Assembly: GCA_964424265.1 (NCBI GenBank) | Contig: CAYRHX010000002.1 | Location: 3,345 to 67,344 of the forward strand | Reading direction: 5' to 3' | Origin: an uncultured Candidatus Saccharibacteria bacterium | GTDB lineage: Bacteria > Patescibacteriota > Minisyncoccia > Phycocordibacterales > UBA2100 | Length of the DNA: 64,000 nt | Shown here: positions 2,212 to 28,739 of the stretch, in pieces | Numbering within the stretch: the stretch's first letter is position 1 | Layout: each line of letters begins with the position of its first letter | The notes under the pieces: model-generated | The model's database searches: none | Seen by the model: the letters and a program-made list of their open reading frames with translations, nothing else | Told to the model about the DNA's origin: nothing | Translations under genes and position numbers: made by a program

Positions 2212-4634
2212 TGAAACATCGAGGTCGATATTTTTTTCAAGACGAGATCAAGAGATGCTAGAGCATTGGCAATCTGAGAATAGTAGTCTTCAAACGGAAG
2301 TAGAGAAAATTGCGCTCTGGATAACTTCGGCGTAATAAGGACATCGAATGAAACTACGTTTGACTGCGCGCCATCGCTGTCACGAATAAGCGTTATGTAG
2401 TAAGTGCCGGGCGGTGTTGGGATTTGCGTTGCAGAAGTCCCCTTACCAACACTGTCATCCATTGTCGTTGGAAATGTAAAGCTAAGACTGCCGCTCGACG
2501 CTCCAGACACACCTGTGACAAAAGCGCCTACCGTTGAAGAAGTGTCGTACACAGACAAGGAGTTGGCGCTTTTAGAGGTATCGAATCCGGATCCGGTGAT
2601 CTCAACGACACTTCCTGCGGCTCCTCGCATCGGACTAATGGCGCTTATGGTGGGCGGGGTAGTAATAGTGAGGAATCGCTCAAGAATTAAAGTGCGATTG
2701 TTGGTCGTATCGGTGACCACGATCGTCAGTGTCCGTGAGCCTACCGTAGATTCCGGCACTTTAAAAGAAATTTGCATGTATGCTCCAGCTCCCGGAGCCG
2801 ACGCGATCGAACTAGGATATGCATCGATAAACCAATCCTCCCCTCCTGAGATTGTCGCTGAGACTGAAACGTCGGACGGCGGACAACTGGCACGGTCTTT
2901 GTTGTTGAGCGTAAATGAAACGTACCCATACGAACCGGATCCAAGTTGTGTTCTACCCGCCATGTCGGCCGCCTCAAACCCGATGAGCTCACACACGACT
3001 GGCTTTACAGCAACCGCAAAGGATGCGGTGGAACGTTTTTTGATAGAGAACGATCCGATGGAAATTCCATGACTATCCCACGCAAACGAGCTTCCCTGCA
3101 TAAGCGCTTGCTGTGAATTCGGATCAATCGCGTAATTCGCATTGATGAGTCGCGGGAATGGGAGATAATCCGGGACGACCTGATTGATATGTATCCCTGC
3201 CGACAGCGGTGAGAGTACGGAATCAAATCCTGTCGGTTGCCTAAACTCAAGATACAGAGGCGCAATTGAAGGTACTGATGGATTCGTTATGACGGCAGCA
3301 CGTACCCCGCTTTGCGCTTCTAGCGGTAAAAGAGTGTAGCTGCCAGTTTGCCGTATGAATACTTTTGACGATGTCGCGAGCCACCCCAATATATCTTTAT
3401 AGAACGCGTTAAAATGCGCCGCCGAATCCCCGTTCCCCATCACGTCAAAAGAGTTTCCATATTCGGAGTGGTAGCAGCCGGTATCCAGAGAAAGGCCTGT
3501 ACAACTCCATGAATTCGCGTGCATCACGCCGAGTTCGTGCCCCATTTCGTGCGCAAGCACATACTCAAAGCCAGACATGTTTGACTTCTGCCATCCGTCA
3601 TCGGGCCATCCAACCCAGCCTTGCGACAGTCGATACGCGCCGCCATTAAATGTCACGTCTGATTTTCCGACAAACGCGCAACCGCCCTGCCACCCATTGA
3701 TGACAAATACTAGACGTCCATAACGCGATAGGTCTATTCGATTTTGAGTGATGTGATTCTTTACTTCTGACTGATCAAGCGTAGGAGAGACACATCCGAG
3801 ATATGAAGAGGTAGGTATTGATATCCAATCAGTGACATCACCAACGAATCGGATGTTCTTATATGATTGTTCATCGTAATATTTCTCGAAATTGCCGGTG
3901 AAAATCATTTTCTTCATTTTGTCTTTGGTCGGTGTATTCGGCAGCCCTGGTTGCGTAATGAGAATGATGAGCGTATTTTGCATACCTACCGTCTCCAGCT
4001 TCGGCTTTTTGAGAACTCTGAATTCTCCTGCGCGCGCCTCCGCAATGATCTTCTTCCCTTTCTGATACCCCTTGATCTCCACGACGGCACCGGAGGTAAG
4101 CGCGGGTGCGCCTCCCGCAAGATAGAGGGAGAAGCGTTCGGTCCCCGTATTTACCTGATAGGCAAAACGCGAATTGCGCTCATTGGAGAAATCGTCGGTA
4201 TGGAGCACGTCAAGAGTGCCGGTGACTGTTGTTTGTATTTCCACTTCTGCTTGGATTGCGCTCGGAAGTTTGGCACGAGCTTCGGGCGAGATCACGTTCC
4301 GGAGAAAGGCCTGAGGATCGCTCTGTGCGAGCTCCTCCATTATCCGTCCTCTTTTTTGGGCGATTTTCAGTTGTTGCGCGGGCGATGTCGACGTGGCGCT
4401 CCGAGCTCCGATACCCGTTATCGCCGGTCGAAGTGTATCGGTAAGAGAACGAAGCTCACGAAGTCCTTTCGTGGATATTCGTTCGGGAATGCGATCAGTC
4501 TCAATCGCTGACAGCGCGATTGGTCCACCAGTGAGTACAATGAGGCCACACAAGACAGCCGCAAATACGAGATGTCGGGCCGAGGTAATCTTCCCTTTCA
4601 CCGGAGCATGGTAACACTCTTTACGTCCCTTCAC
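2208..4634 (-). CDS. Secreted zinc metalloprotease (HExxH...H zincin) with C-terminal IPT/TIG-like domain
   Basis: Signal/TM at N-terminus; VLAHEMGHELGVMHANSW zinc-binding motif; C-terminal ISPMRGAAGSVVEITGSGF resembles an IPT/TIG fold. Four-nt overlap with the downstream gene suggests an operon. Confidence 0.6.
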   Translation of the reverse strand: MKGRKECYHAPVKGKITSARHLVFAAVLCGLIVLTGGPIALSAIETDRIPERISTKGLRELRSLTDTLRPAITGIGARSATSTSPAQQLKIAQKRGRIMEELAQSDPQAFLRNVISPEARAKLPSAIQAEVEIQTTVTGTLDVLHTDDFSNERNSRFAYQVNTGTERFSLYLAGGAPALTSGAVVEIKGYQKGKKIIAEARAGEFRVLKKPKLETVGMQNTLIILITQPGLPNTPTKDKMKKMIFTGNFEKYYDEQSYKNIRFVGDVTDWISIPTSSYLGCVSPTLDQSEVKNHITQNRIDLSRYGRLVFVINGWQGGCAFVGKSDVTFNGGAYRLSQGWVGWPDDGWQKSNMSGFEYVLAHEMGHELGVMHANSWSCTGLSLDTGCYHSEYGNSFDVMGNGDSAAHFNAFYKDILGWLATSSKVFIRQTGSYTLLPLEAQSGVRAAVITNPSVPSIAPLYLEFRQPTGFDSVLSPLSAGIHINQVVPDYLPFPRLINANYAIDPNSQQALMQGSSFAWDSHGISIGSFSIKKRSTASFAVAVKPVVCELIGFEAADMAGRTQLGSGSYGYVSFTLNNKDRASCPPSDVSVSATISGGEDWFIDAYPSSIASAPGAGAYMQISFKVPESTVGSRTLTIVVTDTTNNRTLILERFLTITTPPTISAISPMRGAAGSVVEITGSGFDTSKSANSLSVYDTSSTVGAFVTGVSGASSGSLSFTFPTTMDDSVGKGTSATQIPTPPGTYYITLIRDSDGAQSNVVSFDVLITPKLSRAQFSLLPFEDYYSQIANALASLDLVLKKISTSMFQ

Positions 4635-4666: not shown

Positions 4667-6808
4667 CTACTTCCTCGCAGCAATCACCGCATCTGCCGCA
4701 GTCTTGGGAACAATCGCGTAATGAGAAAATTCAAGGTTCGGGACGCCGCGGCCCTCGGTCGCGGAACGAAGCTGAGTTGTGAATCCGAAAAGCTCTGAAA
4801 GAGGCACCTTTGCTGTGATGACACGAGCTTGGCCGCGCTCCCCCATTGCTTCGATCGAGCCACGCTTTGCGTTGATCATACCGGTCACATCACCCATAAA
4901 TTTCTCCGGCACTACCACTTCCAACTTCATGATCGGTTCGAGAATGACGGGTCGCGCTTTCGCCATCGCCTCTTGCATAGCGTTGATGGCGGCGAGTTTG
5001 AAGGCGATTTCTGAAGAGTCCACATCGTGCGCAGAGCCGTCATAGAGCTCGACGGAAATATCGACGACGGGGAATCCAGCCTGAATGCCGCGCTCCATCG
5101 CTTCGATAAGGCCCTTTTTCACGGGCTGGATGAATTCCTGTGGAATAACTCCTCCTTTGATGTTGTTGATGAATTCAAAGTGATCCTCTCGCTCGACATT
5201 GTTTTTGATTTTCTTCCCTTCTTCCAGCGGCTCGAGCGGCTTCACGCGGATTTTCACGTGACCGTACTGACCACGGCCACCCGTCTGCTTGATGTGTTTG
5301 TATTCCACATCTGCGGTGCCTTGAATCGTCTCGCGATATGCAACCTGCGGCTTCCCTGTCGTCGCCTGGACGCCAAACTCTCGCTTCATACGATCCACGA
5401 TGATCTCGAGGTGCAGCTCGCCCATGCCCGAGACGATGGTTTCCATGGTTTCAGGGTCGGATTTGATGCGGAAGGTAGGATCTTCGTCGGATAGTTTGGA
5501 GAGTGCCATACCCATCTTTTCTTGGTCGGCTTTTGTGTTGGGCTCGATACGCATCGAGACCACCGGCTCCGGAAAGACGATCGATTCGAGTGCAATCGGA
5601 TGCGCTGCGTCGCAAAGCGTGTGGCCGATCTTCACCTCTTTCATACCGACGGCAGCCGCAATTTCACCGGCGTAGACGATTTTCACGTCTTCACGCTTGT
5701 CGGCCTGGAGCCGCACGATGCGGCCTACGCGCTCTTTTTTGTTGTTGGCAGAGTCGTAGATCGTCTGCCCCGCTTCAAAACTTCCGGAATACACGCGGAA
5801 GAATGAAAGCTGCCCAACGAAAGGATCGGTCTGGATTTTGAATACAAGCGCCGAAAACGGGGCTTCATCCGATGCGGGGCGTGTGTCCTCTTCGCCCGTG
5901 TCAGTATTTATCCCTTTGGCTGGTGGCATATCCAAGGGTGACGGAAGGTAATCGACGACCGCATCAAGCACGAGCTGCACTCCCTTGTTTTTGAGTGAAG
6001 ATCCGGTGAGCACAGGGAAGATCTTGTTCTCAATGACGCCCTTGCGGAGCGTTTCCTGAAGAACTTTGGTAGAGATTTCTTTACCATCCAAAAAATCTGC
6101 CATCACCGCATCGTCATTCTCGACAATGCGCTCAACGAGCTCATCGTGATACTTCTTTGCTTCGGCCTTCATGTGTTCGGGAATATCGTATGGAACAACA
6201 TTCTTACCCATCTCGCCTTCAAATTTGTACGCCTTCATGTGCAGCAGGTCGATGATTCCCTCAAATTTGTCTTCGAGACCGATAGGAATCTGCAGTCGCA
6301 CGGCTTTAGAGGAAAGACGGTCGAGAATGGATGCGTATGACTTTTCAAATGACGCGCCGGTGCGGTCGAGTTTGTTGATATAACAAATGCGCGGCACGTT
6401 GGCCTCCTCCGCATAACGCCAGTTGGTCTCAGACTGCGGCTCGACGCCAGCGACGCCGTCGAACACTACAACCGCGCCATCCAAGACACGCATCGAACGC
6501 TTCACTTCTGAAGTGAAGTCGATGTGTCCGGGGGTGTCGATGATGTTGAAGCGGACCTTTTTCGAGAGATCAGCGCCCATGTAGGTCGGGTTCCAGAAAC
6601 ATGTGATCGCAGCGGCCGTGATCGTGATGCCGCGCTCGCGCTCCTGCTCCATCCAGTCCGTGACCGTATTGCCCTCGTGCACTTCGCCGATCTTGTGCGA
6701 CTCGCCGGTGTAGTAGAGGATGCGCTCAGACGTGGTTGTCTTCCCCGCATCGACGTGCGCAACGATGCCGAAATTTCGTACTTTCTCTAATTGATAGTCT
6801 CGTGCCAT
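4667..6808 (-). CDS. fusA: Translation elongation factor G
   Basis: MARDYQLEKVRNFGIVAHVDAGKTTTSERILYYTG... is full-length EF-G. The track ORF extends 22 codons upstream (to 6874); the Met at MARDY is the likely start. Confidence 0.95.
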   Translation of the reverse strand: MARDYQLEKVRNFGIVAHVDAGKTTTSERILYYTGESHKIGEVHEGNTVTDWMEQERERGITITAAAITCFWNPTYMGADLSKKVRFNIIDTPGHIDFTSEVKRSMRVLDGAVVVFDGVAGVEPQSETNWRYAEEANVPRICYINKLDRTGASFEKSYASILDRLSSKAVRLQIPIGLEDKFEGIIDLLHMKAYKFEGEMGKNVVPYDIPEHMKAEAKKYHDELVERIVENDDAVMADFLDGKEISTKVLQETLRKGVIENKIFPVLTGSSLKNKGVQLVLDAVVDYLPSPLDMPPAKGINTDTGEEDTRPASDEAPFSALVFKIQTDPFVGQLSFFRVYSGSFEAGQTIYDSANNKKERVGRIVRLQADKREDVKIVYAGEIAAAVGMKEVKIGHTLCDAAHPIALESIVFPEPVVSMRIEPNTKADQEKMGMALSKLSDEDPTFRIKSDPETMETIVSGMGELHLEIIVDRMKREFGVQATTGKPQVAYRETIQGTADVEYKHIKQTGGRGQYGHVKIRVKPLEPLEEGKKIKNNVEREDHFEFINNIKGGVIPQEFIQPVKKGLIEAMERGIQAGFPVVDISVELYDGSAHDVDSSEIAFKLAAINAMQEAMAKARPVILEPIMKLEVVVPEKFMGDVTGMINAKRGSIEAMGERGQARVITAKVPLSELFGFTTQLRSATEGRGVPNLEFSHYAIVPKTAADAVIAARK

Positions 6809-6904: not shown

Positions 6905-7165
6905 CTAATCGTAAATAGTGTGATCGCCGACGATGTGGAGTAGGGCTTCGCCACCAGCAACCCACTCGAACTTGATGCGGTTTTTACGATCGATCCAGAA
7001 GCCTAAGAACCCCTTATATTTACCGTGCAATTTATGTACTTTGAGCCTCTGGTGATTACTTCTATCCCTGAACAACTCGATTTTCTGGAATGCGTCCTCC
7101 TGTAGTTGCGGAGGAAGCTTCTTCAAACTTCGGAAGAACGCCGGCGTAAACCCAACGGTGACCAT
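6905..7165 (-). CDS. Type II toxin, RelE/ParE superfamily
   Basis: 86 aa; ...HKLHGKYKGFLGFWIDRKNRIKFEW..LLHIVGDHTIYD matches the RelE/ParE fold signature; immediately downstream of a small RHH gene with a 4-nt gap. Confidence 0.7.
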   Translation of the reverse strand: MVTVGFTPAFFRSLKKLPPQLQEDAFQKIELFRDRSNHQRLKVHKLHGKYKGFLGFWIDRKNRIKFEWVAGGEALLHIVGDHTIYD

Positions 7166-7169
7166 ACCG

Positions 7170-7388
7170 TTAGAATCTCTTTATCAACTCACGCGGGTCA
7201 CCATAAAGAACCTTCCCTTCTTTCGCCTCCTGCAAAGAGCGCTGCAGAGATGCGAATGTCGAGTCTTCCTCAAGGGCATCTATACTCAATCGCACTGCAT
7301 GCGCTTTGTTTGCCGCTCGGCCACTTTTGACAAGACCCTTGAGAAACCTCTCCTGCTTGGACGTTATGGGCACTGAAATGGTAACCAT
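7170..7388 (-). CDS. Type II antitoxin, ParD-like (ribbon-helix-helix)
   Basis: 72 aa; ISVPITSKQERFLKGLVKSGRAANKAHAVRLSIDALEE resembles the ParD/COG3609 pattern; paired with the downstream toxin. Confidence 0.6.
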   Translation of the reverse strand: MVTISVPITSKQERFLKGLVKSGRAANKAHAVRLSIDALEEDSTFASLQRSLQEAKEGKVLYGDPRELIKRF

Positions 7389-7451: not shown

Positions 7452-7480
7452 GAAACGGCCGCCCTATGGGCGGCCGTTTC
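7452..7480. terminator. Perfect 13-bp inverted repeat hairpin (GAAACGGCCGCCC tat GGGCGGCCGTTTC), probably a bidirectional terminator
   Basis: Seen directly; T-rich flank on the plus side; lies between the rpsG 3'-end remnant and the TA module. Confidence 0.5.
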
Positions 7481-7499: not shown

Positions 7500-7547
7500 T
7501 TACCACGCAAAGTGGGCGAAGGCTTTGTTGGCTTCGGCTAGGCAGGC
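7500..7547 (-). repeat. Duplicated copy of the rpsG 3' end (encodes ...AEANKAFAHFAW*), direct repeat of 8574..8621
   Basis: ttaccacgcaaagtgggcgaaggctttgttggcttcggc is about 90% identical to the true rpsG 3' end ttaccacgcgaagtgggcgaaggccttgttggcttcggc; in frame behind the stop of the 317-aa ORF. Confidence 0.75.
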
Positions 7548-8501
7548 CTAGTAGCTTTTCTCAGGAGGCCTTTCCGTGCAACGATCAGCGGTGGTCACCA
7601 TTTTCTCATATCGCTCACCAGTGTATACGAACCAATACGTATGCAGTTTGTCGTACGCACAGTGGATGTTTACTGCTACGAATGAGGCTATATCCACATC
7701 ATTGATGACCTGGTCTTTGAAGAACACGTGTCGCTTGTCTTTAAAAAAGAAGGTGTTGAAATATCTATCCTCCGGAGCAGCGTCTCGTAAAGGGATACGC
7801 TCTGCTGTTTGAATGTCCATGAGCGTCATGTGTGCATAGTCGACGCTCGTATCGTCGTAATAATGGAGTTCGGCTTTTACACCAAAATCGCCGTTTCCAT
7901 TATTGAATCCTGATAGACCCGCTCGGGGGTCGTTTCTACCTCCCGCTTTTGTTGTCTGTGCTTGATCATTTCGAGCGATGTCGTAAAACGTGATCGACTG
8001 CATTATCATGCGACCAACCGCAGAGGCCACCGATGCTGAAGCATGCGGTTTGCCGATCCCAAATGGGAAGATCGCCTCGAAAGAACTGTCCTGGGTCGCT
8101 CCAATATAGAGATATTCGACAACACCATAATCGCTGGAGCTGTTCCGCGTTCGGTAGATAGTCTCAACGACAGTTTTTCCATCTACGAGAACATTCTCCT
8201 TTTTCTCGACAGAGAACGTCTCGCTGCCGTCAACGGGAACATTGTTGAGTGCCATGTACGGATCGCCGCTTGCACCTCCAGCATAGCAGGTGAGCTGAAT
8301 CCAGTTCGGATGGGCGATATGCGATTGACGTTTGGTGCAATCCCATCCGTTTACAGTGCCAAGTGAAATCCCGATCTCAGTCAATACGAAAGCCGCAGGA
8401 GCAGCGCTTCCTGTAACTGGCTCCGGCATCGGTGTGAAATACCAATAAGCACCGCCGCCAAGAAGAATGGAAGCTGCGAGCACACTGAGATATTTATTCA
8501 T
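7548..8501 (-). CDS. Hypothetical secreted protein (317 aa), cargo between rpsG 3'-end direct repeats
   Basis: Signal peptide MNKYLSVLAASILLGGGAYWYF; no recognisable catalytic motif. Confidence 0.5.
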   Translation of the reverse strand: MNKYLSVLAASILLGGGAYWYFTPMPEPVTGSAAPAAFVLTEIGISLGTVNGWDCTKRQSHIAHPNWIQLTCYAGGASGDPYMALNNVPVDGSETFSVEKKENVLVDGKTVVETIYRTRNSSSDYGVVEYLYIGATQDSSFEAIFPFGIGKPHASASVASAVGRMIMQSITFYDIARNDQAQTTKAGGRNDPRAGLSGFNNGNGDFGVKAELHYYDDTSVDYAHMTLMDIQTAERIPLRDAAPEDRYFNTFFFKDKRHVFFKDQVINDVDIASFVAVNIHCAYDKLHTYWFVYTGERYEKMVTTADRCTERPPEKSY

Positions 8502-8573
8502 AGCTACTATAATAACCCTCTGACTTCGCTCAGGGTAATTTTGCGCCCTTCGATAAACTCAGGGTAAACAAAA

Positions 8574-9035
8574 TTACCACGCGAAGTGGGCGAAGGCCTT
8601 GTTGGCTTCGGCCATGCGGTGCGTCGTCTCTTTCTTCGTGGCAGCAGCGCCTTCACCCTTGTGTGCGGCCCTCAATTCGGCGAGGAGACTCTCGTGCATG
8701 GGCTTGCCCTTGGTGCCCTCAGCCGCTTCTACGATCCAGCGCATACCGAGTGAGAGCTTGCGATTGGGATTCACTTCGCGAGGCACCTGGTAGTTGGCGC
8801 CACCGACGCGGCGTGAGCGTACTTCCACGGAAGGAGATGCCTTCTCAAGCGCCTCTTCGAGGAAGGTGACAGGATCGCCATCTTTCTTCAGCTCATCCAT
8901 CACTTTGTAGACAATCTTGCGGGCAGTATCTTTCTTGCCGCGCTCCATGACGTAGTTGATGAGCTTCGCAACCTTAAAAGATCCGTACACTTCGTCCGGC
9001 TGAGGCTGCATTCTATTTTTTACGGGTCGTCGCAT
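8574..9035 (-). CDS. rpsG: 30S ribosomal protein S7
   Basis: MRRPVKNRMQPQPDEVYGSFKVAKLINYVMERGKKDTARKIVY... is canonical S7. Confidence 0.95.
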   Translation of the reverse strand: MRRPVKNRMQPQPDEVYGSFKVAKLINYVMERGKKDTARKIVYKVMDELKKDGDPVTFLEEALEKASPSVEVRSRRVGGANYQVPREVNPNRKLSLGMRWIVEAAEGTKGKPMHESLLAELRAAHKGEGAAATKKETTHRMAEANKAFAHFAW

Positions 9036-9116: not shown

Positions 9117-9533
9117 CTATTTACTCGCCTTCGGCTTCTTCGCACCGTACAGTGACCGGCCTCGGCGTCGCTTGTCTATACCTCCGGTGTCGAGCTTACC
9201 GCGGACGATAGTGTAACGCACACCGATGTCCTTCACGCGACCACCGCGGATGAGGACCACGGAGTGCTCCTGAAGGTTGTGACCCTCGCCTGGGATATAC
9301 GCGGTGACCTCCATACCATTAGTAAGGCGCACACGAGCGATTTTGCGGATTGCAGAGTTTGGTTTGCGGGGAGTCTTGGTCGTCACGCGAGTGCACACAC
9401 CACGCTTGAAAGGTGCAGAGTAGAAAGAGGGGCGGTTTTCCAAAGTATTAAAACCTCGCGAAAGTGCGATGGTCTTGGTGCGCCAGGTCTTCTTGACCCG
9501 ACCCTTGCGCGTAAGCTGATTGATTGTAGACAT
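9117..9533 (-). CDS. rpsL: 30S ribosomal protein S12
   Basis: [15 protein letters not shown]...[24 protein letters not shown]... is canonical S12. Confidence 0.95.
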
Positions 9534-9620: not shown

Positions 9621-9944
9621 TTATGACCCACCCTTCACGACGACTTCTGCAAGCGCGTATATGGCTGCAGGAAAATCATCTTTTGGGACATCGCTCATGA
9701 CGCTGTCGACGATACTGAAGTGTTCATGCACAAACTTCTTGCAGCTCTCTTCTGAAACATTTTCAAGACCACCAATCTCCGTAAGAAAACCTCTTATGAG
9801 AGTAACCAGCCTTTCGGCATTTACCACTCTCTCAGAGTTCTCCCGGTACCGTCCTGCCTTCTCGGCAAATGGAAGCCCTTTTTCAGCCTTCTCTTGGTTT
9901 CTTATCATCTGACCAAGTGCCGTACCCTTTTCCCATTCCTTCAT
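9621..9944 (-). CDS. Hypothetical small protein (107 aa)
   Basis: ORF only; no motif. Confidence 0.3.
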   Translation of the reverse strand: MKEWEKGTALGQMIRNQEKAEKGLPFAEKAGRYRENSERVVNAERLVTLIRGFLTEIGGLENVSEESCKKFVHEHFSIVDSVMSDVPKDDFPAAIYALAEVVVKGGS

Positions 9945-9957
9945 ACAATGATTCTAG

Positions 9958-9981
9958 CACGACTACACCCCCGCAATCGTG
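9958..9981. repeat. 24-bp direct repeat (cacgactacacccccgcaatcgtg), copy 1; identical to the last 24 bp of the M50 protease gene
   Basis: Exact 24/24 match with 10685..10708. Confidence 0.8.
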
Positions 9982-9984
9982 GTT

Positions 9985-10509
9985 CTACTCAGTAGCACCT
10001 ATCGTCATATACCCCCCGCCGATTGTCGCTATAACAAAAAGCTCGTCCATCCCTGACGGATACATATACTTGAATCTGATGGCGGACACATTTGGGGATG
10101 TGACCCGAACACCCTGCAACACTGACCCTTCTCGAGGCTTCATTACGGTGGAAAACTTCCCATCATCCCCCATCATTTGCAGGACTTGTGTATTCGGGTC
10201 AAATCTAATAAATCGATCCGAGCCACGTAATATTTCCCCGGCATCTCTCCCATAAAAAACCTTGTCATTGACCTGTTCTCCCGCAGTGCTGTTATCATCA
10301 AGATCTCTCGCATATTTATCCAAATAACCAACACCTTCATCGAAACCTTTCTTGTATCCTTGGTGCTGCAGCTCATTAGCAACGATTGCTCCCCCGGCCA
10401 CTCCTGCCACCGCCGCCCCTATTTTTCCAAGAAGTTGTCTCCGCCCAACATTTTCAGGACCTTTGTCCACGGGACCCTTCCTCGTTAGATCTTCGTTCAT
10501 AATGGGCAA
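9985..10509 (-). CDS. Hypothetical exported protein with twin-arginine-like signal (RRQLLGKIGAAVAGVAGGAIVA)
   Basis: ORF; Tat-like motif; bracketed by the 24-bp direct repeats. Confidence 0.45.
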   Translation of the reverse strand: MPIMNEDLTRKGPVDKGPENVGRRQLLGKIGAAVAGVAGGAIVANELQHQGYKKGFDEGVGYLDKYARDLDDNSTAGEQVNDKVFYGRDAGEILRGSDRFIRFDPNTQVLQMMGDDGKFSTVMKPREGSVLQGVRVTSPNVSAIRFKYMYPSGMDELFVIATIGGGYMTIGATE

Positions 10510-10684: not shown

Positions 10685-10708
10685 CACGACTACACCCCCG
10701 CAATCGTG
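10685..10708. repeat. 24-bp direct repeat, copy 2 (forms the 3' end, ...HTIAGV*, of the M50 protease gene)
   Basis: Exact match to 9958..9981. Confidence 0.8.
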
Positions 10709-11385
10709 TGGGCGATGAGGTAGATGAAACTTCCGAAGGCATCGCCGAGAAGGAGTATGAAAATAACGATGGCACCCATGCCGAGAAATACATTTTGTTC
10801 CATCTTTGCCCGCCACTCTTCATATCCCCGCGCCAGAGATTGAGGAAGGAGCGACTGCAACACCTTTGACCCATCAAGCGGCGGAATGGGGATGAGGTTG
10901 AAAATGCCGAGCATTATATTTACAACAACGATGACAAAAAGAATATCGCTCATAGAGGCAAGCATCCCTGTACGAATGATGATCGATCCGATGACCGCGA
11001 TTACGAAATTCGACAAGGGTCCTGCAAAAGCAACGATTGCTTCGGAAAAACGGCCGGGGCGTAGATTGTAAGGATTGTACGGTACTGGCTTCGCCCATGC
11101 GAAAAAGAAGGGTGCCTGCGATAAAGCCAACATGACAGGAAGGAGGATCGAACCAAATAGATCGATGTGCGGAATGGGATTGAGTGTAAGTCGGCCAGCA
11201 TAGCGCGCGGTCGGATCCCCAAGCTTCTCGGCAGCAACGCCATGCATCACCTCGTGGATGATCGCAGAAAAGATGATGACCACTATGAGGAAAATCGTGT
11301 CAACAATTTGCATAAGCAGTTGCCGAATGGTACCATGCGCCGCTATATGGCAAGAGTGTGTGAAATAACAGGCAAGAAAAGCCAA
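10690..11385 (-). CDS. Site-2 protease family zinc metalloprotease (peptidase M50)
   Basis: Multi-TM protein with HEVMHGVAAEKLG (HExxH) and downstream FAGPLSNFVIAV LDG motifs typical of M50/SpoIVFB-like proteases. The start may be the internal Met at about 11313, since rpmB starts at 11347 on the other strand. Confidence 0.75.
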   Translation of the reverse strand: MAFLACYFTHSCHIAAHGTIRQLLMQIVDTIFLIVVIIFSAIIHEVMHGVAAEKLGDPTARYAGRLTLNPIPHIDLFGSILLPVMLALSQAPFFFAWAKPVPYNPYNLRPGRFSEAIVAFAGPLSNFVIAVIGSIIIRTGMLASMSDILFVIVVVNIMLGIFNLIPIPPLDGSKVLQSLLPQSLARGYEEWRAKMEQNVFLGMGAIVIFILLLGDAFGSFIYLIAHTIAGV

Positions 11386-15138: not shown

Positions 15139-15166
15139 AGCGTATCAAACAAATCCCGCGCGAATC

Positions 15167-15316
15167 TAGAGCACGTTTGAAAACGCTTAACCGGAGTGAG
15201 GGGCGGCATTCCCGAGGAATCCCCGCAGTACGAAGAGTGCGAGGATTGAGGATTTTCCAGCAGGAAAATCCGGGTTCCGAGGGAATACCGCCTCGGAGCA
15301 GAGGTTTTCAAATATG
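15167..15316 (+). mobile_element. MITE-like ~147-bp inverted-repeat element, copy 1
   Basis: TAGAGCACGTTTGAAAAC ... GTTTTCAAATATG terminal inverted repeats; internal perfect hairpin GGATTTTCC-agca-GGAAAATCC and arm pairing GGCGGCATTCCC / GGGAATACCGCC. About 90% identical to 28560..28707. Confidence 0.7.
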
Positions 15317-15318
15317 TT

Positions 15319-15633
15319 CTACAATTTCTTGATATCGAGCTTCTCCAATCGCAGCGCCTTGAACAAGGCGTACACAATGGCAGCAATAATGATGAAGTCT
15401 ATTGCATTGGAGAGAAAGGCTCCGATCTTCACCGATCCGAGTGACCAGCCTGCAAGCGAATCAGCCGATCCGATCAGCGCACCGATAATCGGATTGAGTA
15501 GATCTTGCACAAAAGATGAAACGACCTTCGAAACGGCCGTGCCCAGAATGAATCCTATGGCGAGCCCCATCACGCCCTGTTCCCGTATGAAATTGATGAA
15601 GCCCTGGAATGACCCAACGATATGATCTTGCAT
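15319..15633 (-). CDS. mscL: Large-conductance mechanosensitive channel
   Basis: MQDHIVGSFQGFINFIREQGVMGLAIGFILGTA... is canonical MscL. Confidence 0.85.
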   Translation of the reverse strand: MQDHIVGSFQGFINFIREQGVMGLAIGFILGTAVSKVVSSFVQDLLNPIIGALIGSADSLAGWSLGSVKIGAFLSNAIDFIIIAAIVYALFKALRLEKLDIKKL

Positions 15634-19334: not shown

Positions 19335-19742
19335 ATGGAGGACTGTATTTTCTGCAAAATCGTGCGCGGCGAAATACCCTCGTTTAAGGTATACGAGGAT
19401 GCGAATGTGCTGGCCTTTCTCGACATCCATCCCACAAATCCCGGCCACACGCTCGTCGTACCCAAGATACACGCTGAGAATATCTTTGAAATATCATCAG
19501 AATCATGGTCGCAGGTAATGGAGACCGCGCGCAAACTCTCAATCACGATCGAAAACGCGCTCGATGCGAAAGGAATCAACCTCATGATGAACAACCGCGA
19601 GCACGCGGGCCAGGTCGTCGATCATGTACACGTGCACATCGTCCCCCGCTTCACCGGCGACGCACATCGACAGTGGTCGCAGTCATCCTACAAAGACGGC
19701 GAGGCAGAAAAGATCCTTGATAAAATCCGTAAGGGACTCTAA
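19335..19742 (+). CDS. HIT-family (histidine triad) nucleotide hydrolase
   Basis: CIFCKIVRGEIP...HPTNPGHTLVVPK...HVHVHIVPR. Start placed at MEDCIFCKI; the track ORF begins at 19215. Confidence 0.85.
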   Translation: MEDCIFCKIVRGEIPSFKVYEDANVLAFLDIHPTNPGHTLVVPKIHAENIFEISSESWSQVMETARKLSITIENALDAKGINLMMNNREHAGQVVDHVHVHIVPRFTGDAHRQWSQSSYKDGEAEKILDKIRKGL

Positions 19743-22700
19743 AAAGCGACCGGACCAGGACAGGGTCCGTTACTAATCATGGTCGCGCCAGCAGCATTGA
19801 GGTTGCACACGCTTGAGTATGTGACAGGCGGCACGGCTGCACAGGCCACTCCTTGCGGACAAATCCCTCGAGGGGGTGCGCCGCACACCGGCTTATACAA
19901 GTCAGGGCATCTAATGGGGGCTGAGCCGACCTCAACTGTTGCTGTCGCCTTCGCTGTTTTTCCTCCCGAATCACGGACAAGCATTTTCACTGTGTAAGTA
20001 CCCGCACGGGCATAGCTGTGTGTGAACGTCGTTGATTGCGCCACGGCAGCTCCAGGATAGAAGAAGCTAGCGGGGGCGATCCTCGCATACCATTCATCTC
20101 CCCACTCTATTGAATAGGTGAGCGTGCCGTTTTCAGGGTCCGATGCTTGGACTCTCCATGTGCCTGTGGCGCCTACCGCGAGTGTGGTTGGTCCAGAGAA
20201 CGAAGAGATGACGGGAGACTGATTGTCGTCTGAGGATGTAAAGTACGCCCTACAATACGGATCTTGCGTAGGAGATCCTTCTGCCCGGATGCATGCCATC
20301 ATTGTGCACATCGCAGGAGCTCCGGGAGACGATCGGCTGCACGTATTACATCCATCAAACCAGGATTTGCAACGTGGATCCGCTTCGGGATTCGAGGCGG
20401 TAGGGCGACACGCACCTTCGTACGCAAACGTCGCACCATCTGCCCGCATCGCACATGCATTACTGTAGGTCTGCTGGACAGGATTGCACGGTGTCGTGAT
20501 GCATTGCACCTGCTTCGAGCCACAAACCGGATTGTACTCCATCGTACATGCTTGCGGTCCTCCACCCCCACCTTCGCACCATCGCATCATCTGATTACGA
20601 GAGAGTGGGCCGAACATGCCGAGAGCAGGGAGGCCTTGCGACGACTGCCATCTGGAAACTGACTGTGCGGTGACAGATCCGAAGTGGCCCGTGGGGTCGG
20701 TAGTGAAGTATCCCTGTTCTCGCAAGAATTCTTGCAGTCTCCGCACGTCGTCTCCCCAAAGGCCTACTGAGAGATCGCGGTAGAGCGCTTTGCAGATCGG
20801 ATGCTTGGGAGGGACGGGATTGGGGGTTGGCGGTTGTGGAGCCGGTCGACACGCCCCTTCGTATGCAAGCGTCGCGCCATCGGCCTTCATCTTGCACTTG
20901 TTGCCGTATGTCGTCGGCACCGGATCACACGGTGTCGTGATACAAACGATCGGCTTCTTGCCGCAGACGGGTATGTATTCCTCTGTGCATGCGATCGTGA
21001 CTCCGGTATTATTCGCGCAGTTCCCGGCAGTGTCGCGCGTGTAGCCTACAGGTACGCCGATTTGTATATCCTGGATGTTGGCACACGCATCTATTGTCAT
21101 TCCCGTGCATGTCGATGGCCACACTGCGGGACACGGATGAATCGGGCCGATGTGGCAATTTCCGTTGGTCTTGGAATAACCATTGGGTACAACGGCCTGT
21201 GCTCCTAGAATGTTTGGACAGAGATCGGTGATCGAATCTTGCGAGGTGACCGTGATCATCGTGGCGCCTGCCCACACGTCTTGTGTGAAGCTGCCGTTGA
21301 ATTGGTTCACATCAGAAAAGTCGTATATCTTCGCTCGTATTGTGTAGGTGCCTGCCTCTGCGTATGTGTGAATGCCACACGGTGCGTTGCGTCCGTTTTG
21401 CGTGGGATACGTGCCGTCGCCCCAATCAATTGAGAATGTACGGCCGCCAAAGCGGGGCTGATTGTTCGTACACTCTGAAGAAACGAGCGACCTCCATTCT
21501 TCAGGAAAGATAGCCGAGACGGTAAGCGGCGCCTCCCCTGAGGTGGGAGACGCTGAAAATGCCGATATCGGAGGCAAGCACCCAACCCCTCCCACACCTT
21601 CCGCACAAACATGCGGAGCGAGATCAATTATTATAGGGACTGGAACGGGCATTTTATTGTATAGATCTGCCACCTGAGTTTCGGATAGAGCCGTCTTGTA
21701 GTACACGAAGTTTGCCAACGACCCCTTGAAATGATTGATGCCGTTGGGGTAGTAGCCAGGCATATCGTACATGCGACCGATTGAGGGCATCGAATTGTGG
21801 TACCCCCTGTTGTTTGACGCTACGTCGATGGTCTTCACAGGCCGACCATTTAGATACACGGTCGAAGCGCTGCCCGTATTTACCCACGTCATGTGATTCC
21901 AGGTACCTGATATATTCCTCGACAATGGCACTTCGTACTGCCGCGCCGATGCACAACCGCTACCCAAAAGCGAAGATCCATTTTTGTCCGCACGGATAAA
22001 CACCGAATCTGCATCTACCGATAGCACGAGGTCATTTCCGTTGTTGCCATCCGCGTCGGAGAAGATCGTGCCGCAACTCGTACCCATGAAATACACCCAC
22101 GCTCCGATCGTAAATTCGTTTGAATCAGGTACCGGGGTCATCGAAACATACGAGTCAGTGCCATTAAACTGTAGTGGGCCTTTCCATGAGAGGACGGGGG
22201 TGGGTTCGGCAACACTCCCGACCGTGATCGTCGCCGTGCTAATGACCGTATCTTGTACAAGGCCGAGAGAACATGCAATCATGGTGAGAATATTCCCGCT
22301 GCACTTTTCCAAGAGACGCGCCGCGTAGGTGCCGGGACTCGCATACGTATGTGCCTTAAATACCGCGCATTTGTTGGCGAGAAAAGCCTGCTCCGAACAA
22401 CCCATTCCCACATTCAAGGCGAGCGTTGTGCCGTCGCCAAACTCAAGCATGTGCTGCATCGAAGCCTCGCGAGGGATGGTGAAGGTCACGGCAAGTGGAG
22501 CTATGCCCGATGTCGGAGATGCCGTGAACGGTGGGGACACCGACGGTGTCACAACGGGATTGGCAGGAACCTCTGGTCCATTGGACATCACGTACTTAAC
22601 GGCAATACGAACGGTGCTGTCGGAGGCCGTGGTTACATTAAAAGAGCAGATGAGACCGGTGCATCGCACAGGAGTAGTAAACTGGCTCACCGAGCAGGGC

Positions 22701-27221: not shown

Positions 27222-28562
27222 ATGAAAAGCACATTTCACATACAACGTTCGAGACATAAGGAAAGCCGGGGGCAGATCTTGATATTAACGCTCGTATTGT
27301 TTGCCGCTATCGCGGTAACTGCAGTCACGGGGGTTTCCGCACCAATTCTCCGCGAAATCCGCATTGGTAAAGATTTGCAACTCTCCAAACAAAGCTATTA
27401 CACCGCGGAGGCAGGGAGCGAGGACGCATACCATCGCATACGCAGCAACCTTGCCACATCGTTCCCCTCGACCCTCGCGGTAGGCGGCGCAACGACCACC
27501 ATTACTCTCTCCACCATCGACCTATCGAATCAGGAGATCGTCTCCGTCGGCAACATGAATAATCACATACGAACCATCGTAAAAGAAATCACGGTCACTG
27601 ACGGATTCGACTTCAACTTTGCGCTTCAAACAGGCGTGGGCGGTATATCCATGAGTAACAACGCGAGTGTAAACGGCAACGTTTATTCAAGCGGACCGGT
27701 GACGAGCACCAATTCAAATTCAAACCAATATAATTACGTCCATGGGGCTATCGTTTCTGCCGGACCAACCGGGCTTGTGCATCAGATACACTCCACAAGC
27801 AGTGTCTATGCGCACACTATTACCAATTCCACGATTGATAAAGACGCGTACTACATAACCTTCGCAGGCGCCACATCGAGCGTGACCGTATCAGGGGTGA
27901 AGTATCCAAACAGCGCCGACCAACCAACCATCCCGATGCCAATATCCGATGAGCTGATCGCCTCATGGGAGACAGACGCCGTAGCAGGAGGTACCGCCAC
28001 ATGCACAAATGGCACCTACTCGATCACATCGAACGTGACGATCGGTCCAAAGAAAATACCGTGCAACCTATCGATCAGCGGCAGCGGAACCACCGTGACG
28101 CTACGGGGCGCACTCTGGGTCACGGGGAACATCACGATCGCCAACTCCTCAGTTATGAGGGTTGACGATTCTGTAGGGAACAAAAGCGTCCCCGTCATAG
28201 CGGACAAACCAGGTAACAATGCCACGAGCGCGCTTATCTCAATCAGCGGAAGCTCCAACTTCTACGGCTCCACCGGCAACTCGAGCTCATACGTGATGTT
28301 GATTTCGCAAAACAATAGCGCGGAAACAGGGGGCAACAACCTCGCGATAGACATCGTGAATGGCGCTACGGGAAACCTTCTTACGTACGCCGCGCACGGG
28401 CAGGTCCGACTCCAAAATAACGTCAACTTGCGTGAAGTAACCGCATACAAAATCACCCTTCTAAACAACGCGATCGTTAACTACTCGATTGGCCTTGCAC
28501 AGCCGTTGTTTACTTCGGGGGCAGGAGGATCGTGGAAAATTAAGAGATGGAAAGAGCGCTAG
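27222..28562 (+). CDS. Large pilin-like protein (446 aa) with N-terminal hydrophobic pilin-type helix but no Glu5; Thr/Ser/Asn/Gly-rich beta-rich body (possible minor pilin/tip protein)
   Basis: MKSTFHIQRSRHKESRG|QILILTLVLFAAIAV...; last gene of the pilin operon. Confidence 0.5.
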   Translation: MKSTFHIQRSRHKESRGQILILTLVLFAAIAVTAVTGVSAPILREIRIGKDLQLSKQSYYTAEAGSEDAYHRIRSNLATSFPSTLAVGGATTTITLSTIDLSNQEIVSVGNMNNHIRTIVKEITVTDGFDFNFALQTGVGGISMSNNASVNGNVYSSGPVTSTNSNSNQYNYVHGAIVSAGPTGLVHQIHSTSSVYAHTITNSTIDKDAYYITFAGATSSVTVSGVKYPNSADQPTIPMPISDELIASWETDAVAGGTATCTNGTYSITSNVTIGPKKIPCNLSISGSGTTVTLRGALWVTGNITIANSSVMRVDDSVGNKSVPVIADKPGNNATSALISISGSSNFYGSTGNSSSYVMLISQNNSAETGGNNLAIDIVNGATGNLLTYAAHGQVRLQNNVNLREVTAYKITLLNNAIVNYSIGLAQPLFTSGAGGSWKIKRWKER

Positions 28563-28707
28563 AGCATGTTTGAAAACGTTTAACCGGAGTGAGAGGCGGT
28601 ATTTCCGAGGAATCCCCGCAGCACGAAGATTGCGAGGATTGAGGATTTTTCAGCAGGAAAATCCGGGTTCCGAGGGAATACCGCCTCGAAGCGAAGGTTT
28701 GGAAGCA
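28560..28707 (+). mobile_element. MITE-like ~147-bp inverted-repeat element, copy 2
   Basis: TAGAGCATGTTTGAAAACG...GGATTTTTCAGCAGGAAAATCC...GGGAATACCGCC...GGTTTGGAAGCATG; begins on the stop codon of the pilin-like gene and sits between convergent gene ends. Confidence 0.7.
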
Positions 28708-28739
28708 TGCCCTAGCTGTGTCCCAATCACCGTTCCGCG

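What the first reader, a model, noticed from the sequence alone, without database searches (positions are those of the whole stretch)
7500..8621. Cargo gene inserted at the 3' end of rpsG, flanked by duplicated rpsG termini, inside the str operon
The last ~45 bp of rpsG (…AEANKAFAHFAW*) occur twice in direct orientation: the functional copy at 8574-8621 and a ~90%-identical remnant at 7500-7547. They bracket exactly one gene (317-aa signal-peptide protein, 7548-8501), and the remnant is in frame behind that gene's stop codon. This is the footprint of an element that integrates into a gene's 3' end and carries a replacement terminus (as tyrosine-recombinase islands do at tRNA 3' ends), or of homologous-recombination capture. 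It places a secreted-protein gene between rpsG and fusA in one of the most conserved operons in bacteria.
Basis: seen in the sequence. Interest (0 to 1): 0.7.

Follow-up and report, generated by a model that had tools for sequence, protein, structure and literature searches.

The report
Insertion scar after ribosomal protein S7
In this Paceibacteria-like (CPR) bacterium a small secreted-protein gene sits just after the ribosomal protein S7 gene, followed by a leftover copy of the S7 gene's last 39-44 bases; this is one of about a dozen such scars found in related genomes, and it marks a hot spot for gene gain rather than a new kind of mobile element.

Summary
The last 39 nt of rpsG (8574-8612) recur at 7500-7538 with 37/39 identity, or 40/44 when extended. 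The two copies bracket exactly one ORF (7548-8501, 317 aa), and the remnant is in frame behind its stop codon.

A relative (L088) has the empty site: its rpsG end lines up with the window's remnant and leads straight into the same toxin-antitoxin pair.

The event is not unique. In this clade the rpsG-fusA gap ranges from 5 nt to more than 4 kb and holds unrelated genes. Leftover 3' ends of rpsG, M50 peptidase, fusA and a ComEC-type gene bracket inserts in at least seven other contigs, including a second case in this window (9958-9981 and 10685-10708).

- The repeats end at the stop codon in nearly all cases, but their upstream boundary varies (24 to about 125 nt).
- None of the cargo genes examined is an integrase.
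- Differences between copies are mainly at third codon positions.
- L098 and L174 each carry two remnants.

This favours host recombination anchored in the conserved gene ("insertion with long target duplication") over a site-specific element. The exact pathway is inferred, not shown.

The parts
8574..9035 (-). rpsG (ribosomal protein S7, 153 aa), intact
   Evidence: Pfam Ribosomal_S7, E = 3e-48. It is 97% identical in protein to P0003 (L087).
8574..8617 (-). Functional copy of the duplicated rpsG 3' terminus (core 8574-8612, ...AEANKAFAHFAW*)
8502..8573 (-). 72-nt spacer between the rpsG stop and the ORF317 start. It folds into a stem that pairs GGUAAUUUUGU (including the stop codon) with a downstream GCAAAAUUACC.
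   Evidence: fold z = -3.75. Its function was not tested.
7548..8501 (-). ORF317, the bracketed gene. It has an N-terminal hydrophobic helix (signal peptide or anchor), an N-domain at residues about 30-172, and a C-terminal region with DKNYY-like repeats at about 208-313.
   Evidence: It belongs to a real protein family: 70 hits at E <= 1e-3 and N-domain homologues of 170-220 aa. The Pfam DKNYY match is weak (E = 8e-4, below the curated cut-off). In the AF2 model the N-domain has pLDDT 80-97 and the C-terminal part is poor. The fold resembles PsbP/DcrB/LpqN only weakly (best E = 1.3e-3). GC3 is 50.9% against a window mean of 57.2 +/- 4.4.
7500..7543 (-). Non-functional remnant of the rpsG 3' terminus (core 7500-7538, 37/39 identical to the functional copy; both differences are synonymous third-position transitions)
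   Evidence: It occupies the position of the real S7 end in the empty-site relative L088. It is also colinear with the S7 end plus downstream sequence of L182 and L094.
7452..7480 (-). 13-bp perfect hairpin, terminator-like. It is probably the original rpsG terminator.
   Evidence: I5; z = -3.6. Remnants in L095, L098 and L174 are also followed by hairpins.
7170..7388 (-). ParD-like antitoxin (72 aa). It lies outside the duplication and is part of the ancestral context.
   Evidence: NCBIfam TIGR02606, E = 1.4e-5, below the curated cut-off. Orthologues follow S7 in L087, L088 and L094.
6905..7165 (-). RelE/StbE-like toxin (86 aa)
   Evidence: NCBIfam TIGR02385, weak (E = 8e-3). It is conserved in L087 and L088.
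4667..6808 (-). fusA (EF-G), the next conserved gene
9117..9533 (-). rpsL (S12), upstream neighbour
10685..10708 (-). Second scar in the window, functional copy: the last 19 nt of the M50 peptidase gene (10690-11313) plus 5 nt beyond the stop
   Evidence: (D8), 7 and 94: a perfect 24-nt repeat with 0 matches expected by chance.
9958..9981 (-). Remnant of the M50 3' terminus. Together with 10685-10708 it brackets ORF174 (9985-10509), which has an RRQLL motif that looks Tat-like by eye.
   Evidence: L087 has M50 followed directly by rpsL, 73 nt apart. The M50 terminus is also duplicated in L105.

Best explanation
The repeat is the scar of a gene insertion made by the host's own recombination machinery, not by a dedicated recombinase.

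Shown:
- The ancestral arrangement was rpsG, then a terminator hairpin, then the ParD/RelE-like pair, then fusA, as L088 still shows as far as its contig reaches (rpsG end to the toxin gene).
- A 1,074-bp unit now sits at the rpsG end. It consists of one copy of the last 39-44 nt of rpsG, a 72-nt spacer and ORF317.
- The displaced rpsG end remains as a dead remnant in front of the old terminator.

Inferred:
- DNA from a related lineage, in which an ORF317-type gene naturally follows rpsG, paired with the resident rpsG through the conserved coding sequence.
- It was then fixed in one of two ways. Either a circularised fragment integrated by a single crossover (Campbell-type), or one end recombined homologously and the other joined illegitimately inside the last 40-odd bases of the resident rpsG (homology-facilitated illegitimate recombination).
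- Either route leaves an intact rpsG, the cargo, and a 3' fragment of rpsG whose homology stops exactly at the stop codon.

The same process recurs in this clade at rpsG, M50, fusA and a ComEC-type gene. It can act serially, leaving arrays of remnants.
For: 1. Empty site. The window's remnant-to-antitoxin stretch is colinear with L088's S7 end-to-antitoxin stretch. The remnant plus its downstream sequence also matches the S7 end plus downstream sequence of L182 and L094.

2. Hot spot. The S7-to-EF-G gap ranges from 5 nt (L107) to more than 4 kb, with unrelated genes in each lineage. In 74 loci from diverse bacteria the gap is mostly under 100 nt.

3. Recurrent scars. There are 10 beyond the window's two, listed in the full report: six rpsG remnants (L095, two in L098, two in L174, L010), M50 and ComEC-type in L105, and fusA in L150 and L030. 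In 145 loci, 8 of 55 direct repeats in CPR loci abut a gene's stop codon. About 2 would be expected by my own rough estimate. The figure for non-CPR loci is 0 of 18.

4. No recombinase. ORF317, HicBA, MazF-like and the other cargo genes tested show no integrase. Neighbours within about 6 kb show none either. One insert in L150 holds a Y1 (IS200-like) gene.

5. Homology ends at the stop codon, and even the stop codon differs between copies (TAA versus TAG in L095 and L098). The upstream boundary varies from 24 to about 125 nt.

6. Coding-type divergence. Across 11 repeat pairs there are 72 differences, distributed 14/10/48 over codon positions 1, 2 and 3 (p = 8e-9 against an even split). Eight of the 11 remnants keep a stop codon at the homologous position. 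The ComEC-type remnant in L105 encodes a different tail of the same length. Remnant 1 in L098 matches L095's allele at 58/59 positions but its own gene at only 51/59. These remnants are therefore 3' ends of other alleles.

7. Native position of the cargo. ORF317 homologues lie directly after S7, without a remnant, in L175 and L177.

8. Arrays. L098 reads S7, HicBA, remnant 1, a PaaX-like gene, remnant 2. In L174 two S7 termini flank an ORF317 homologue.

9. Plausibility. ComEC genes lie in the window's own population. Saccharibacteria show ComEC-dependent natural transformation, and com genes are conserved across CPR (PMC10633639). Single crossover of circularised fragments duplicates part of the homologous locus (PMC3240628). 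Insertions with long target duplication and no mobility genes are known, mostly in competent species (PMC2853133).
Against: - No donor genome was found, so no junction microhomology or mosaic breakpoint in rpsG could be shown. Lineages are so diverged (third-position identity 51-64% between the window and L087) that sliding-window tests are uninformative.
- For the window itself the two copies differ at only 2 sites, so an in-situ duplication cannot be excluded for this particular event.
- Three of the eight rpsG remnants start near the same point, -42 to -39, at the Met141 codon (window, L174 copy 1, L098 remnant 2). A site-specific core would predict this.
- The enrichment in CPR over non-CPR loci is weak, about p = 0.03 by my own binomial estimate, and the sampling was not independent.
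- L098's backbone is not L095-like. So it is unclear whether the remnant or the functional end is the foreign one.
- Natural transformation delivers linear single strands, which does not obviously produce circles.
Confidence: 0.55

Rival explanations
1. Mirror-image import. ORF317 is the native neighbour of rpsG, as in L175 and L177. The block that came in is the rpsG 3' fragment plus hairpin plus toxin-antitoxin pair, from a donor arranged like L088. The homologous anchor was on the right, in fusA, and an illegitimate join occurred just after ORF317. The mechanism is the same as in the best explanation, but the cargo is different.
For: - ORF317-family genes follow S7 natively in L175 and L177.
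- Toxin-antitoxin modules are typical mobile cargo. HicBA and MazEF-like modules are the cargo in L098 and L105.
- The remnant's two variant bases (AAA, TTT) match L088, L089, L094 and L095 rather than the window's own rpsG or L087.
- In L098 the remnant is the copy that looks foreign.
Against: - The toxin-antitoxin pair is shared at the same position by L087, L088, L094 and the window, which suggests it is older than ORF317 in this sub-clade.
- The closest relative, L087, has the pair but an unrelated 167-aa gene in the ORF317 slot.
- ORF317 has a lower GC3 than the local background.
Confidence: 0.2
2. Site-specific integrative element. A small cassette carries an attP that mimics the rpsG 3' end. 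It is inserted by a tyrosine or serine recombinase encoded elsewhere, or since deleted, as genomic islands do at tRNA 3' ends.
For: - Direct repeats flank the insert, and the gene's end is restored.
- rpsG is hit repeatedly, and three remnants begin at about -42.
- Arrays of remnants resemble tandem accretion at att sites.
- In L174 an ORF317 homologue has S7 termini on both sides while the gene upstream is not S7.
Against: - No recombinase gene was found in the cargo genes examined or near the window insert.
- Repeat lengths range from 24 to about 125 nt, and four different target genes are involved.
- Cargo lies on either strand and is unrelated between events.
- No match to the degenerate rpsG-terminus pattern was found in 2.9 million viral contigs. 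ORF317 has no match in phage genomes.
- No attC-like or terminal inverted repeats are present.
Confidence: 0.15
3. In-situ target duplication. A staggered double-strand break, or a transposase-like cut, at the rpsG end was filled in around a captured fragment, producing a 39-44-nt target-site duplication from a single template.
For: - The window's copies are nearly identical (37/39), and the M50 pair is perfect (24/24).
- One related insert, in L150, contains a Y1 (IS200-like) transposase gene.
Against: - The duplication ends exactly at the stop codon in 5 of the 6 cases inspected base by base, although nothing in a staggered cut would respect a codon boundary.
- Stop codons differ between copies.
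- The pooled differences show a third-position excess (48 of 72). By my own rough estimate, neutral decay of a dead copy would give only about 45%.
- Some remnants match foreign alleles better than their own gene.
- The lengths are far beyond known transposon target-site duplications (established knowledge).
- No terminal inverted repeats are present.
Confidence: 0.05
4. Not an insertion at all. The similarity would be due to a conserved regulatory or RNA element downstream of rpsG, to chance, or to an assembly chimera.
For: The remnant plus hairpin folds stably.
Against: - Zero matches expected by chance.
- Single-copy relatives lack any second copy (L087, L088, L089, L107 and others).
- No Rfam family matches there.
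- Four independent assemblies carry both copies.
Confidence: 0.02

Closest known systems
Insertion with long target duplication (described for restriction-modification genes in Helicobacter pylori, Haemophilus influenzae, Neisseria and others; Furuta, Abe and Kobayashi 2010, PMC2853133)
   Same: - A short gene block is flanked by direct repeats longer than 30 bp.
- A related genome holds one copy at an uninterrupted site.
- No integrase or transposase is present.
- The repeats can overlap the 3' end of the upstream gene (46-bp repeats in H. influenzae).
- It is mostly seen in naturally competent bacteria.
- The mechanism is unresolved there too.
   Different: - The cargo here is a secreted or anchored protein, and toxin-antitoxin pairs or unknown ORFs in relatives, not restriction-modification genes.
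- The repeats are almost entirely coding 3' termini, and all but one end at the stop codon.
- Differences between copies carry a coding (allelic) signature.
- The same gene end is hit repeatedly, giving arrays.
- The hosts are CPR/Patescibacteria.
Homology-facilitated illegitimate recombination, and single-crossover integration of circularised fragments (PMC3240628 and the work it cites in Acinetobacter, Streptococcus pneumoniae and Pseudomonas stutzeri)
   Same: - One homologous anchor is enough to fix foreign DNA.
- In the E. coli experiments most products carried a duplication of part of the homologous locus (109-950 bp), created by single crossover of a circular molecule lacking part of the homologous fragment. 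This is the same architecture as seen here.
   Different: - Those are laboratory events with defined donors.
- Here the donor, the junction microhomology and the route (transformation or another) are all unknown.
- The duplicated segments here are shorter (24 to about 125 nt).
Integrase-borne genomic islands at tRNA or protein-gene 3' ends (general knowledge, not tested against a specific family here)
   Same: The element supplies a replacement 3' end, leaves the old one as a direct repeat, and can accumulate in tandem.
   Different: Here there is no integrase, the cargo is tiny (0.1-1.7 kb), repeat lengths vary, and there are several target genes.
Integration hot spots or 'minimal mobile elements' between conserved genes, as in Neisseria (recalled from the literature, not checked here)
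   Same: A slot between two conserved genes holds different whole-gene cassettes in different lineages. They are presumed to be exchanged by transformation and flanking homology.
   Different: That model uses two homologous flanks and leaves no duplicated gene ends. Here a scar is left in a minority of lineages.
Integron cassette arrays (general knowledge)
   Same: Small promoter-poor cassettes accumulate in series at one point, with the newest nearest the insertion point (inferred here for L098 and L174).
   Different: There is no IntI, no attI and no attC inverted-repeat sites. The separators here are fragments of a housekeeping gene.

Membership tests
Insertion with long target duplication (criteria in PMC2853133) | The insert is flanked by direct repeats longer than 30 bp | tested here: met
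   Core of 39 nt (37/39), or 44 nt (40/44) extended.
Insertion with long target duplication (criteria in PMC2853133) | A related genome carries a single copy of the repeat at an uninterrupted site, and both flanks align with it | tested here: met
   In L088 the S7 end leads to the antitoxin, colinear with the window's remnant and its downstream sequence. L182 and L094 also align. The relatives are distant (S7 about 80% nt identity), not the same species.
Insertion with long target duplication (criteria in PMC2853133) | No other mobile-element genes (integrase, transposase, prophage) in the insert, and an insert shorter than 20 kb | tested here: met
   The insert is 1,074 bp with one ORF and no mobility domain. 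Neighbours within about 6 kb are housekeeping genes or unknown.
Insertion with long target duplication (criteria in PMC2853133) | The cargo is a restriction-modification system (this is how the class was originally screened) | tested here: not met
   The cargo is a PsbP/DcrB-like domain plus DKNYY-like repeats. This is a screening criterion rather than a mechanistic one.
Integrase-mediated island at a gene 3' end | A tyrosine or serine recombinase gene within or adjacent to the element | tested here: not met
   none in the window insert, and none among the cargo genes tested in related inserts.
Integrase-mediated island at a gene 3' end | The same att core (fixed boundaries) in independent insertions at the same gene | tested here: inconclusive
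   The upstream boundaries of rpsG remnants are -27, -25/-37, -39/-44, -42, -42, -59 and about -125. Three cluster near -42 and the rest do not.
Integrase-mediated island at a gene 3' end | Excision to a circular form and an empty site within the same population | not testable with these tools
   No read-level data are available. All six contigs of this population carry the insert.
Integron gene cassette | An attC site (imperfect inverted repeats) at the cassette end, with IntI and attI nearby | tested here: not met
   No inverted repeat lies at the cassette boundaries. No integrase is nearby.
Transposon / insertion sequence | Terminal inverted repeats, a transposase, and a short target-site duplication (usually 2-15 bp) | tested here: not met
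   No terminal inverted repeats and no transposase. The duplication is 39-44 nt.
Homology-facilitated illegitimate recombination / Campbell-type single crossover | One copy of the repeat derives from foreign (donor) DNA homologous to the target gene | tested here: inconclusive
   Pooled scars show coding-type divergence (14/10/48 by codon position, p = 8e-9) and foreign-allele matches (L098: 58/59 against 51/59). The window's own pair has only 2 differences.
Homology-facilitated illegitimate recombination / Campbell-type single crossover | Microhomology at the illegitimate junction, and an identifiable donor | not testable with these tools
   No donor genome was recovered. The closest ORF317 homologue is 61% identical over a 96-residue fragment, and 50-55% for longer homologues.

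The most novel reading that the evidence does not exclude
CPR bacteria may move small gene cassettes (toxin-antitoxin pairs, secreted proteins) without any recombinase. The cassette would use a fragment of a highly conserved gene's 3' end as a portable address.

The cassette plus one repeat would loop out by recombination between the two direct repeats. It could then re-enter at the same gene in a distant lineage by RecA-dependent single crossover. Arrays would build up behind rpsG, fusA and similar genes, much as integrons build cassette arrays.

Two observations would be direct traces of such transfer: the foreign-allele remnant in L098, and the ORF317 homologue in L174, which is flanked by S7 termini although the upstream gene is not S7.
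Probability: 0.2. Interest if true: 0.7.

Novelty: new variant of a known kind. Interest (0 to 1): 0.45.

Why it matters
CPR/Patescibacteria have small genomes with few recognisable mobile elements, so how they gain genes is poorly understood.

These stop-codon-bounded leftovers of conserved gene ends are a simple, searchable footprint of gene gain. They point to host recombination anchored in conserved genes, probably fed by natural competence, as one route.

They also show that the rpsG-fusA junction, normally among the most stable in bacteria, is a turnover hot spot in this clade.

The footprint could be used across the phylum to date and count insertion events. It could also help settle the mechanism of "insertion with long target duplication", which remains unresolved.

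For this window alone the biology is modest: one accessory envelope protein of unknown function.

Tried and rejected
- **Population variants.** Exact-protein look-ups of S7 and ORF317 found only the same population, with no empty allele.
- **Genome scan with S7.** The best hits were only about 60% identical, so the scan served mainly as a cross-phylum control.
- **Mosaic test in rpsG.** Sliding-window and third-position identity tests for a breakpoint were uninformative, because synonymous sites are near saturation between lineages.
- **ORF167 of L087.** I tested whether it is a diverged allele of ORF317, since both start MNKYL. BLASTP shows no homology. L100's 339-aa ORF is also unrelated.
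- **Truncated cargo in L174.** I considered that its 213-aa homologue was cut at an illegitimate junction. This was rejected: stand-alone N-domain proteins of 170-220 aa are the norm for the family.
- **Phage or plasmid origin.** The degenerate rpsG-terminus pattern has no match in viral contigs. ORF317 has no tblastn match in phage genomes.
- **Extending L174.** A search with its downstream partial ORF returned nothing.
- **Known RNA.** Rfam finds only four tRNAs in the window.
- **In-frame remnant as read-through extension.** Judged coincidental. The remnants read for frame in the window (M50), L098 (remnant 1) and L174 (copy 2) are not in frame, and nothing here suggests TAG reassignment.
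- **Function of ORF317.** The fold search gave only weak PsbP/DcrB/LpqN-like similarity (best E = 1.3e-3), so no function is claimed.
Full report
**1. The observation**

All genes in this region lie on the minus strand. In order they are:
- M50 peptidase, 10690-11313
- ORF174, 9985-10509
- ORF107, 9621-9944
- rpsL, 9117-9533
- rpsG, 8574-9035
- ORF317, 7548-8501
- a ParD-like antitoxin, 7170-7388
- a RelE-like toxin, 6905-7165
- fusA, 4667-6808

The last 39 nt of rpsG (8574-8612) recur at 7500-7538 with two mismatches. Extended to 44 nt the identity is 40/44. No such match occurs in 100 shuffles of the window.

Both copies read AEANKAFAHFAW* and bracket exactly ORF317. The remnant is in frame after the ORF's TAG plus 9 nt. 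The remnants read for frame in the window (M50), L098 (remnant 1) and L174 (copy 2) are not in frame, so I treat this as coincidence.

Four independent assemblies of the same population carry both copies. One correction: the remnant is followed by a 13-bp hairpin (7452-7480) and a toxin-antitoxin pair, not directly by fusA.

**2. The organism and the empty site**

S7 and its neighbours place the contig among Paceibacteria/Kaiserbacteria-like CPR bacteria.

L088 (S7 92% identical in protein) has the S7 stop, then about 105 nt, then an orthologous antitoxin and toxin. Aligned, the window's remnant sits exactly where L088's real rpsG end sits, and the toxin-antitoxin operator palindrome follows at the same distance.

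The remnant plus downstream sequence is also colinear with the S7 end plus downstream sequence of L182 and L094.

The closest relative found, L087 (S7 97% identical in protein, 87% in DNA), has an unrelated 167-aa ORF in the same slot and no remnant.

**3. A hot spot, not a violated sanctuary**

In 74 loci from diverse bacteria where both genes could be placed, the rpsG-fusA gap is mostly under 100 nt. Among about 18 lineages of this clade with S7 at least 76% identical:
- only L107 keeps the two genes 5 nt apart;
- the others hold 0.66 kb to more than 4 kb of lineage-specific genes. These include toxin-antitoxin pairs, small membrane proteins, a uracil-DNA glycosylase, a Mu Gam-like protein and a PaaX-like regulator.

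The M50-rpsL gap is equally variable, from 73 nt to 2.3 kb.

**4. The scar recurs**

Scanning downstream of each conserved gene for a second copy of its last 60-70 nt gave the following:

| Gene end | Locus | Repeat | Cargo |
|---|---|---|---|
| rpsG | L095 | 25 nt, perfect | 72-aa membrane ORF |
| rpsG | L098, remnant 1 | about 125 nt, interrupted by 31 nt | HicB/HicA |
| rpsG | L098, remnant 2 | at about 3612-3656, followed by a hairpin | PaaX-like gene (minus strand) |
| rpsG | L174 | two copies | flank the closest full-length ORF317 homologue |
| rpsG | L010 | 21/23, 111 nt after the stop | none |
| M50 | window | 24/24 at 9958-9981 and 10685-10708 | ORF174 |
| M50 | L105 | about 75 nt | 353-aa ORF on the opposite strand |
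| fusA | L150 | 69 nt | a 249-aa ORF and a Y1 (IS200-like) gene, lying before tuf |
| fusA | L030 | 29 nt | not examined |
| ComEC-type metallo-beta-lactamase gene | L105 | 92 nt by BLAST (114 nt compared) | MazF-like toxin plus a neighbouring ORF, minus strand |

A blind self-comparison of 145 loci (1.41 Mb) gave these counts:
- In CPR loci, 8 of 55 direct repeats abut the stop codon of an ORF of at least 100 aa. I estimate about 2 would be expected by chance.
- In non-CPR loci the figure is 0 of 18.
- The contrast between CPR and non-CPR loci is only suggestive. By my own binomial estimate p is about 0.03, and the sampling was not independent.

**5. Anatomy common to the scars**

- The downstream boundary is the stop codon in nearly every case. 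Sequence beyond it is unrelated, and even the stop codon can differ (TAA versus TAG). The exception is the window's M50 repeat, which runs 5 nt beyond the stop.
- The upstream boundary varies from 24 to about 125 nt.
- The remnant is followed by what looks like the ancestral downstream sequence. Examples are the window against L088, L095 against L099 and L108, and L150 against L151.
- Cargo genes are unrelated to each other, lie on either strand, span 0.1-1.7 kb, and none of those examined is an integrase.
- Over 11 repeat pairs (535 nt) there are 72 differences, distributed 14/10/48 over codon positions 1, 2 and 3 (p = 8e-9 against an even split). Eight of 11 remnants keep a stop codon at the homologous position.
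- The ComEC-type remnant in L105 encodes a different C-terminal tail of the same length.
- L098's remnant 1 matches L095's rpsG at 58/59 positions but its own gene at 51/59, although L098's backbone is not L095-like.

Many remnants are therefore 3' ends of other alleles that diverged while still coding. They are not decayed copies made in place. For the window's own pair only two differences exist, both synonymous, so this point cannot be settled for it.

**6. The cargo**

ORF317 is a real gene.
- A full HMMER scan finds 70 relatives at E <= 1e-3.
- Residues about 30-172 match a family of stand-alone proteins of 170-220 aa.
- Residues about 208-313 match DKNYY-type repeats. The Pfam match (E = 8e-4) is below the curated cut-off.
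- In the AlphaFold model the N-domain is confident (pLDDT 80-97) and the C-terminal part is poor.
- The N-domain resembles PsbP/DcrB/LpqN-type extracytoplasmic domains only weakly (best E = 1.3e-3, TM-score about 0.5 per target length).
- An N-terminal hydrophobic helix suggests export or membrane anchoring.

Family members lie immediately after rpsG, without a remnant, in L175 and in L177-L179. So the family is a habitual occupant of this slot in some lineages. This is what one expects of a donor for rpsG-anchored transfer.

GC3 is 50.9% for ORF317, 46.5% for ORF174 and 47.2% for ORF107. All are below the window's long-ORF mean of 57.2 +/- 4.4.

**7. Mechanism**

The data fit recombination anchored in the conserved coding sequence. 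Two routes are possible:
- a single crossover between the chromosome and a circularised fragment carrying a gene end plus cargo;
- a homologous crossover on one side plus an illegitimate join inside the resident gene's last 24 to about 125 nt.

Either route yields an intact gene, the cargo, and a 3' fragment of the gene, with homology ending at the stop codon because donor and recipient differ beyond it. Repeating the process at the functional gene end pushes older cargo and remnants downstream, giving the arrays seen in L098 and inferred for L174.

Support from the literature:
- Single crossover of circularised fragments produced duplications of 109-950 bp at the homologous locus in E. coli (PMC3240628).
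- Insertion with long target duplication and without mobility genes is documented, mostly in naturally competent species, with 46-bp repeats overlapping gene 3' ends in H. influenzae (PMC2853133).
- Saccharibacteria are naturally transformable in a ComEC-dependent way, and com genes are conserved across CPR (PMC10633639). ComEC-type genes lie a few kb from this locus.

None of these steps was observed here. No donor, junction microhomology or mosaic breakpoint could be shown, because the available relatives are near synonymous saturation.

**8. Rivals**

- **Mirror image.** The toxin-antitoxin block, with a hitch-hiking rpsG fragment, may be what came in, anchored in fusA, with ORF317 native. 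It uses the same mechanism and cannot be excluded. The shared position of the pair in L087, L088 and L094 argues mildly against it.
- **Site-specific element with an integrase in trans or lost.** It explains the repeated use of rpsG, the arrays, and the three remnants starting near -42. It is disfavoured by the absence of any recombinase, the variable boundaries, the four different target genes, the lack of inverted repeats, and the absence of the sequence from viral contigs.
- **In-situ staggered-break duplication.** It does not explain the stop-codon boundary, the differing stop codons, or the coding-type divergence.
- **Regulatory element, chance or assembly artefact.** All three are excluded.

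**9. Comparison with known systems and verdict**

The window's event meets the three structural criteria of "insertion with long target duplication": repeats over 30 bp, an empty site in a relative, and no mobility genes. It differs in four ways:
- the cargo is different;
- the repeats are coding termini bounded by the stop codon;
- the divergence between copies has an allelic signature;
- the event recurs serially in CPR genomes.

I rate it a new variant of a known kind. The finding is real and its second proposed mechanism is the better one. The str-operon setting is less remarkable than it looked, because the junction is a clade-wide hot spot.

The more interesting result is the family of about a dozen scars. 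They give a searchable footprint of how these reduced genomes acquire genes.

Noticed in passing
window 9958-9981 and 10685-10708: A perfect 24-nt direct repeat consists of the last 19 nt of the M50 peptidase gene plus 5 nt beyond the stop. It brackets ORF174 (9985-10509), which has an RRQLL motif that looks Tat-like by eye. The architecture matches the rpsG scar. L087 has M50 followed directly by rpsL, and L105 has an independent M50-terminus remnant.
   Followed up: yes
window 15166-15321, 28559-28714 and 46064-46142: An intergenic element of about 156 nt is present in two full copies (89% identical) and one half copy. It folds into one long imperfect hairpin with inverted ends (DNA fold z = -5.5) and matches no Rfam family. 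It looks like a MITE- or REP-like repeat.
   Followed up: partly
L174 1-106: Upstream of the first S7-terminus copy is not rpsG. It is the end of a gene reading ...YVALTRAMSELHVVALKG*, which looks by eye like a superfamily-1 helicase C-terminus. That gene stops 6 nt before the copy. The contig is only 1,194 bp, and a search to extend it found nothing.
   Followed up: partly
window 7539-7543; L174 65; L098 about 3612: Three of the eight rpsG remnants begin within a few bases of the Met141 codon of S7 (-42 to -39). This could be chance (I estimate p of about 0.1) or a preferred junction.
   Followed up: partly
L150 8085-8112 and 8825-8852: Inside the insert bracketed by the fusA terminus, the Y1 (IS200-like) transposase gene (8136-8810) is itself flanked by a 28-nt direct repeat (96% identical).
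   Followed up: no
L176 1-28 and 133-155: A distant ORF317-family member (P0125) lies downstream of what looks like a tRNA 3' end. A second partial copy of that 3' end lies about 105 nt further on.
   Followed up: no
L099 6515-6566 / 8142-8192 and 6952-6978 / 8205-8231; L069 4350-4431 / 5975-6071: These direct repeats link the region upstream of M50 or rpsL with the region just before or after rpsG. They may be duplicated promoter or leader segments, or further recombination scars.
   Followed up: no
window 8502-8585: The rpsG stop codon and the following bases (GGUAAUUUUGU) pair with GCAAAAUUACC 23 nt downstream, within the spacer that came with the insert. This could be a terminator or a translational element for ORF317.
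   Followed up: no
window 20403-20551 and 20844-20992: A 149-nt internal direct repeat (about 70-77% identical) lies inside the 1,295-aa ORF 19739-23626. It probably reflects a repeated protein domain.
   Followed up: no
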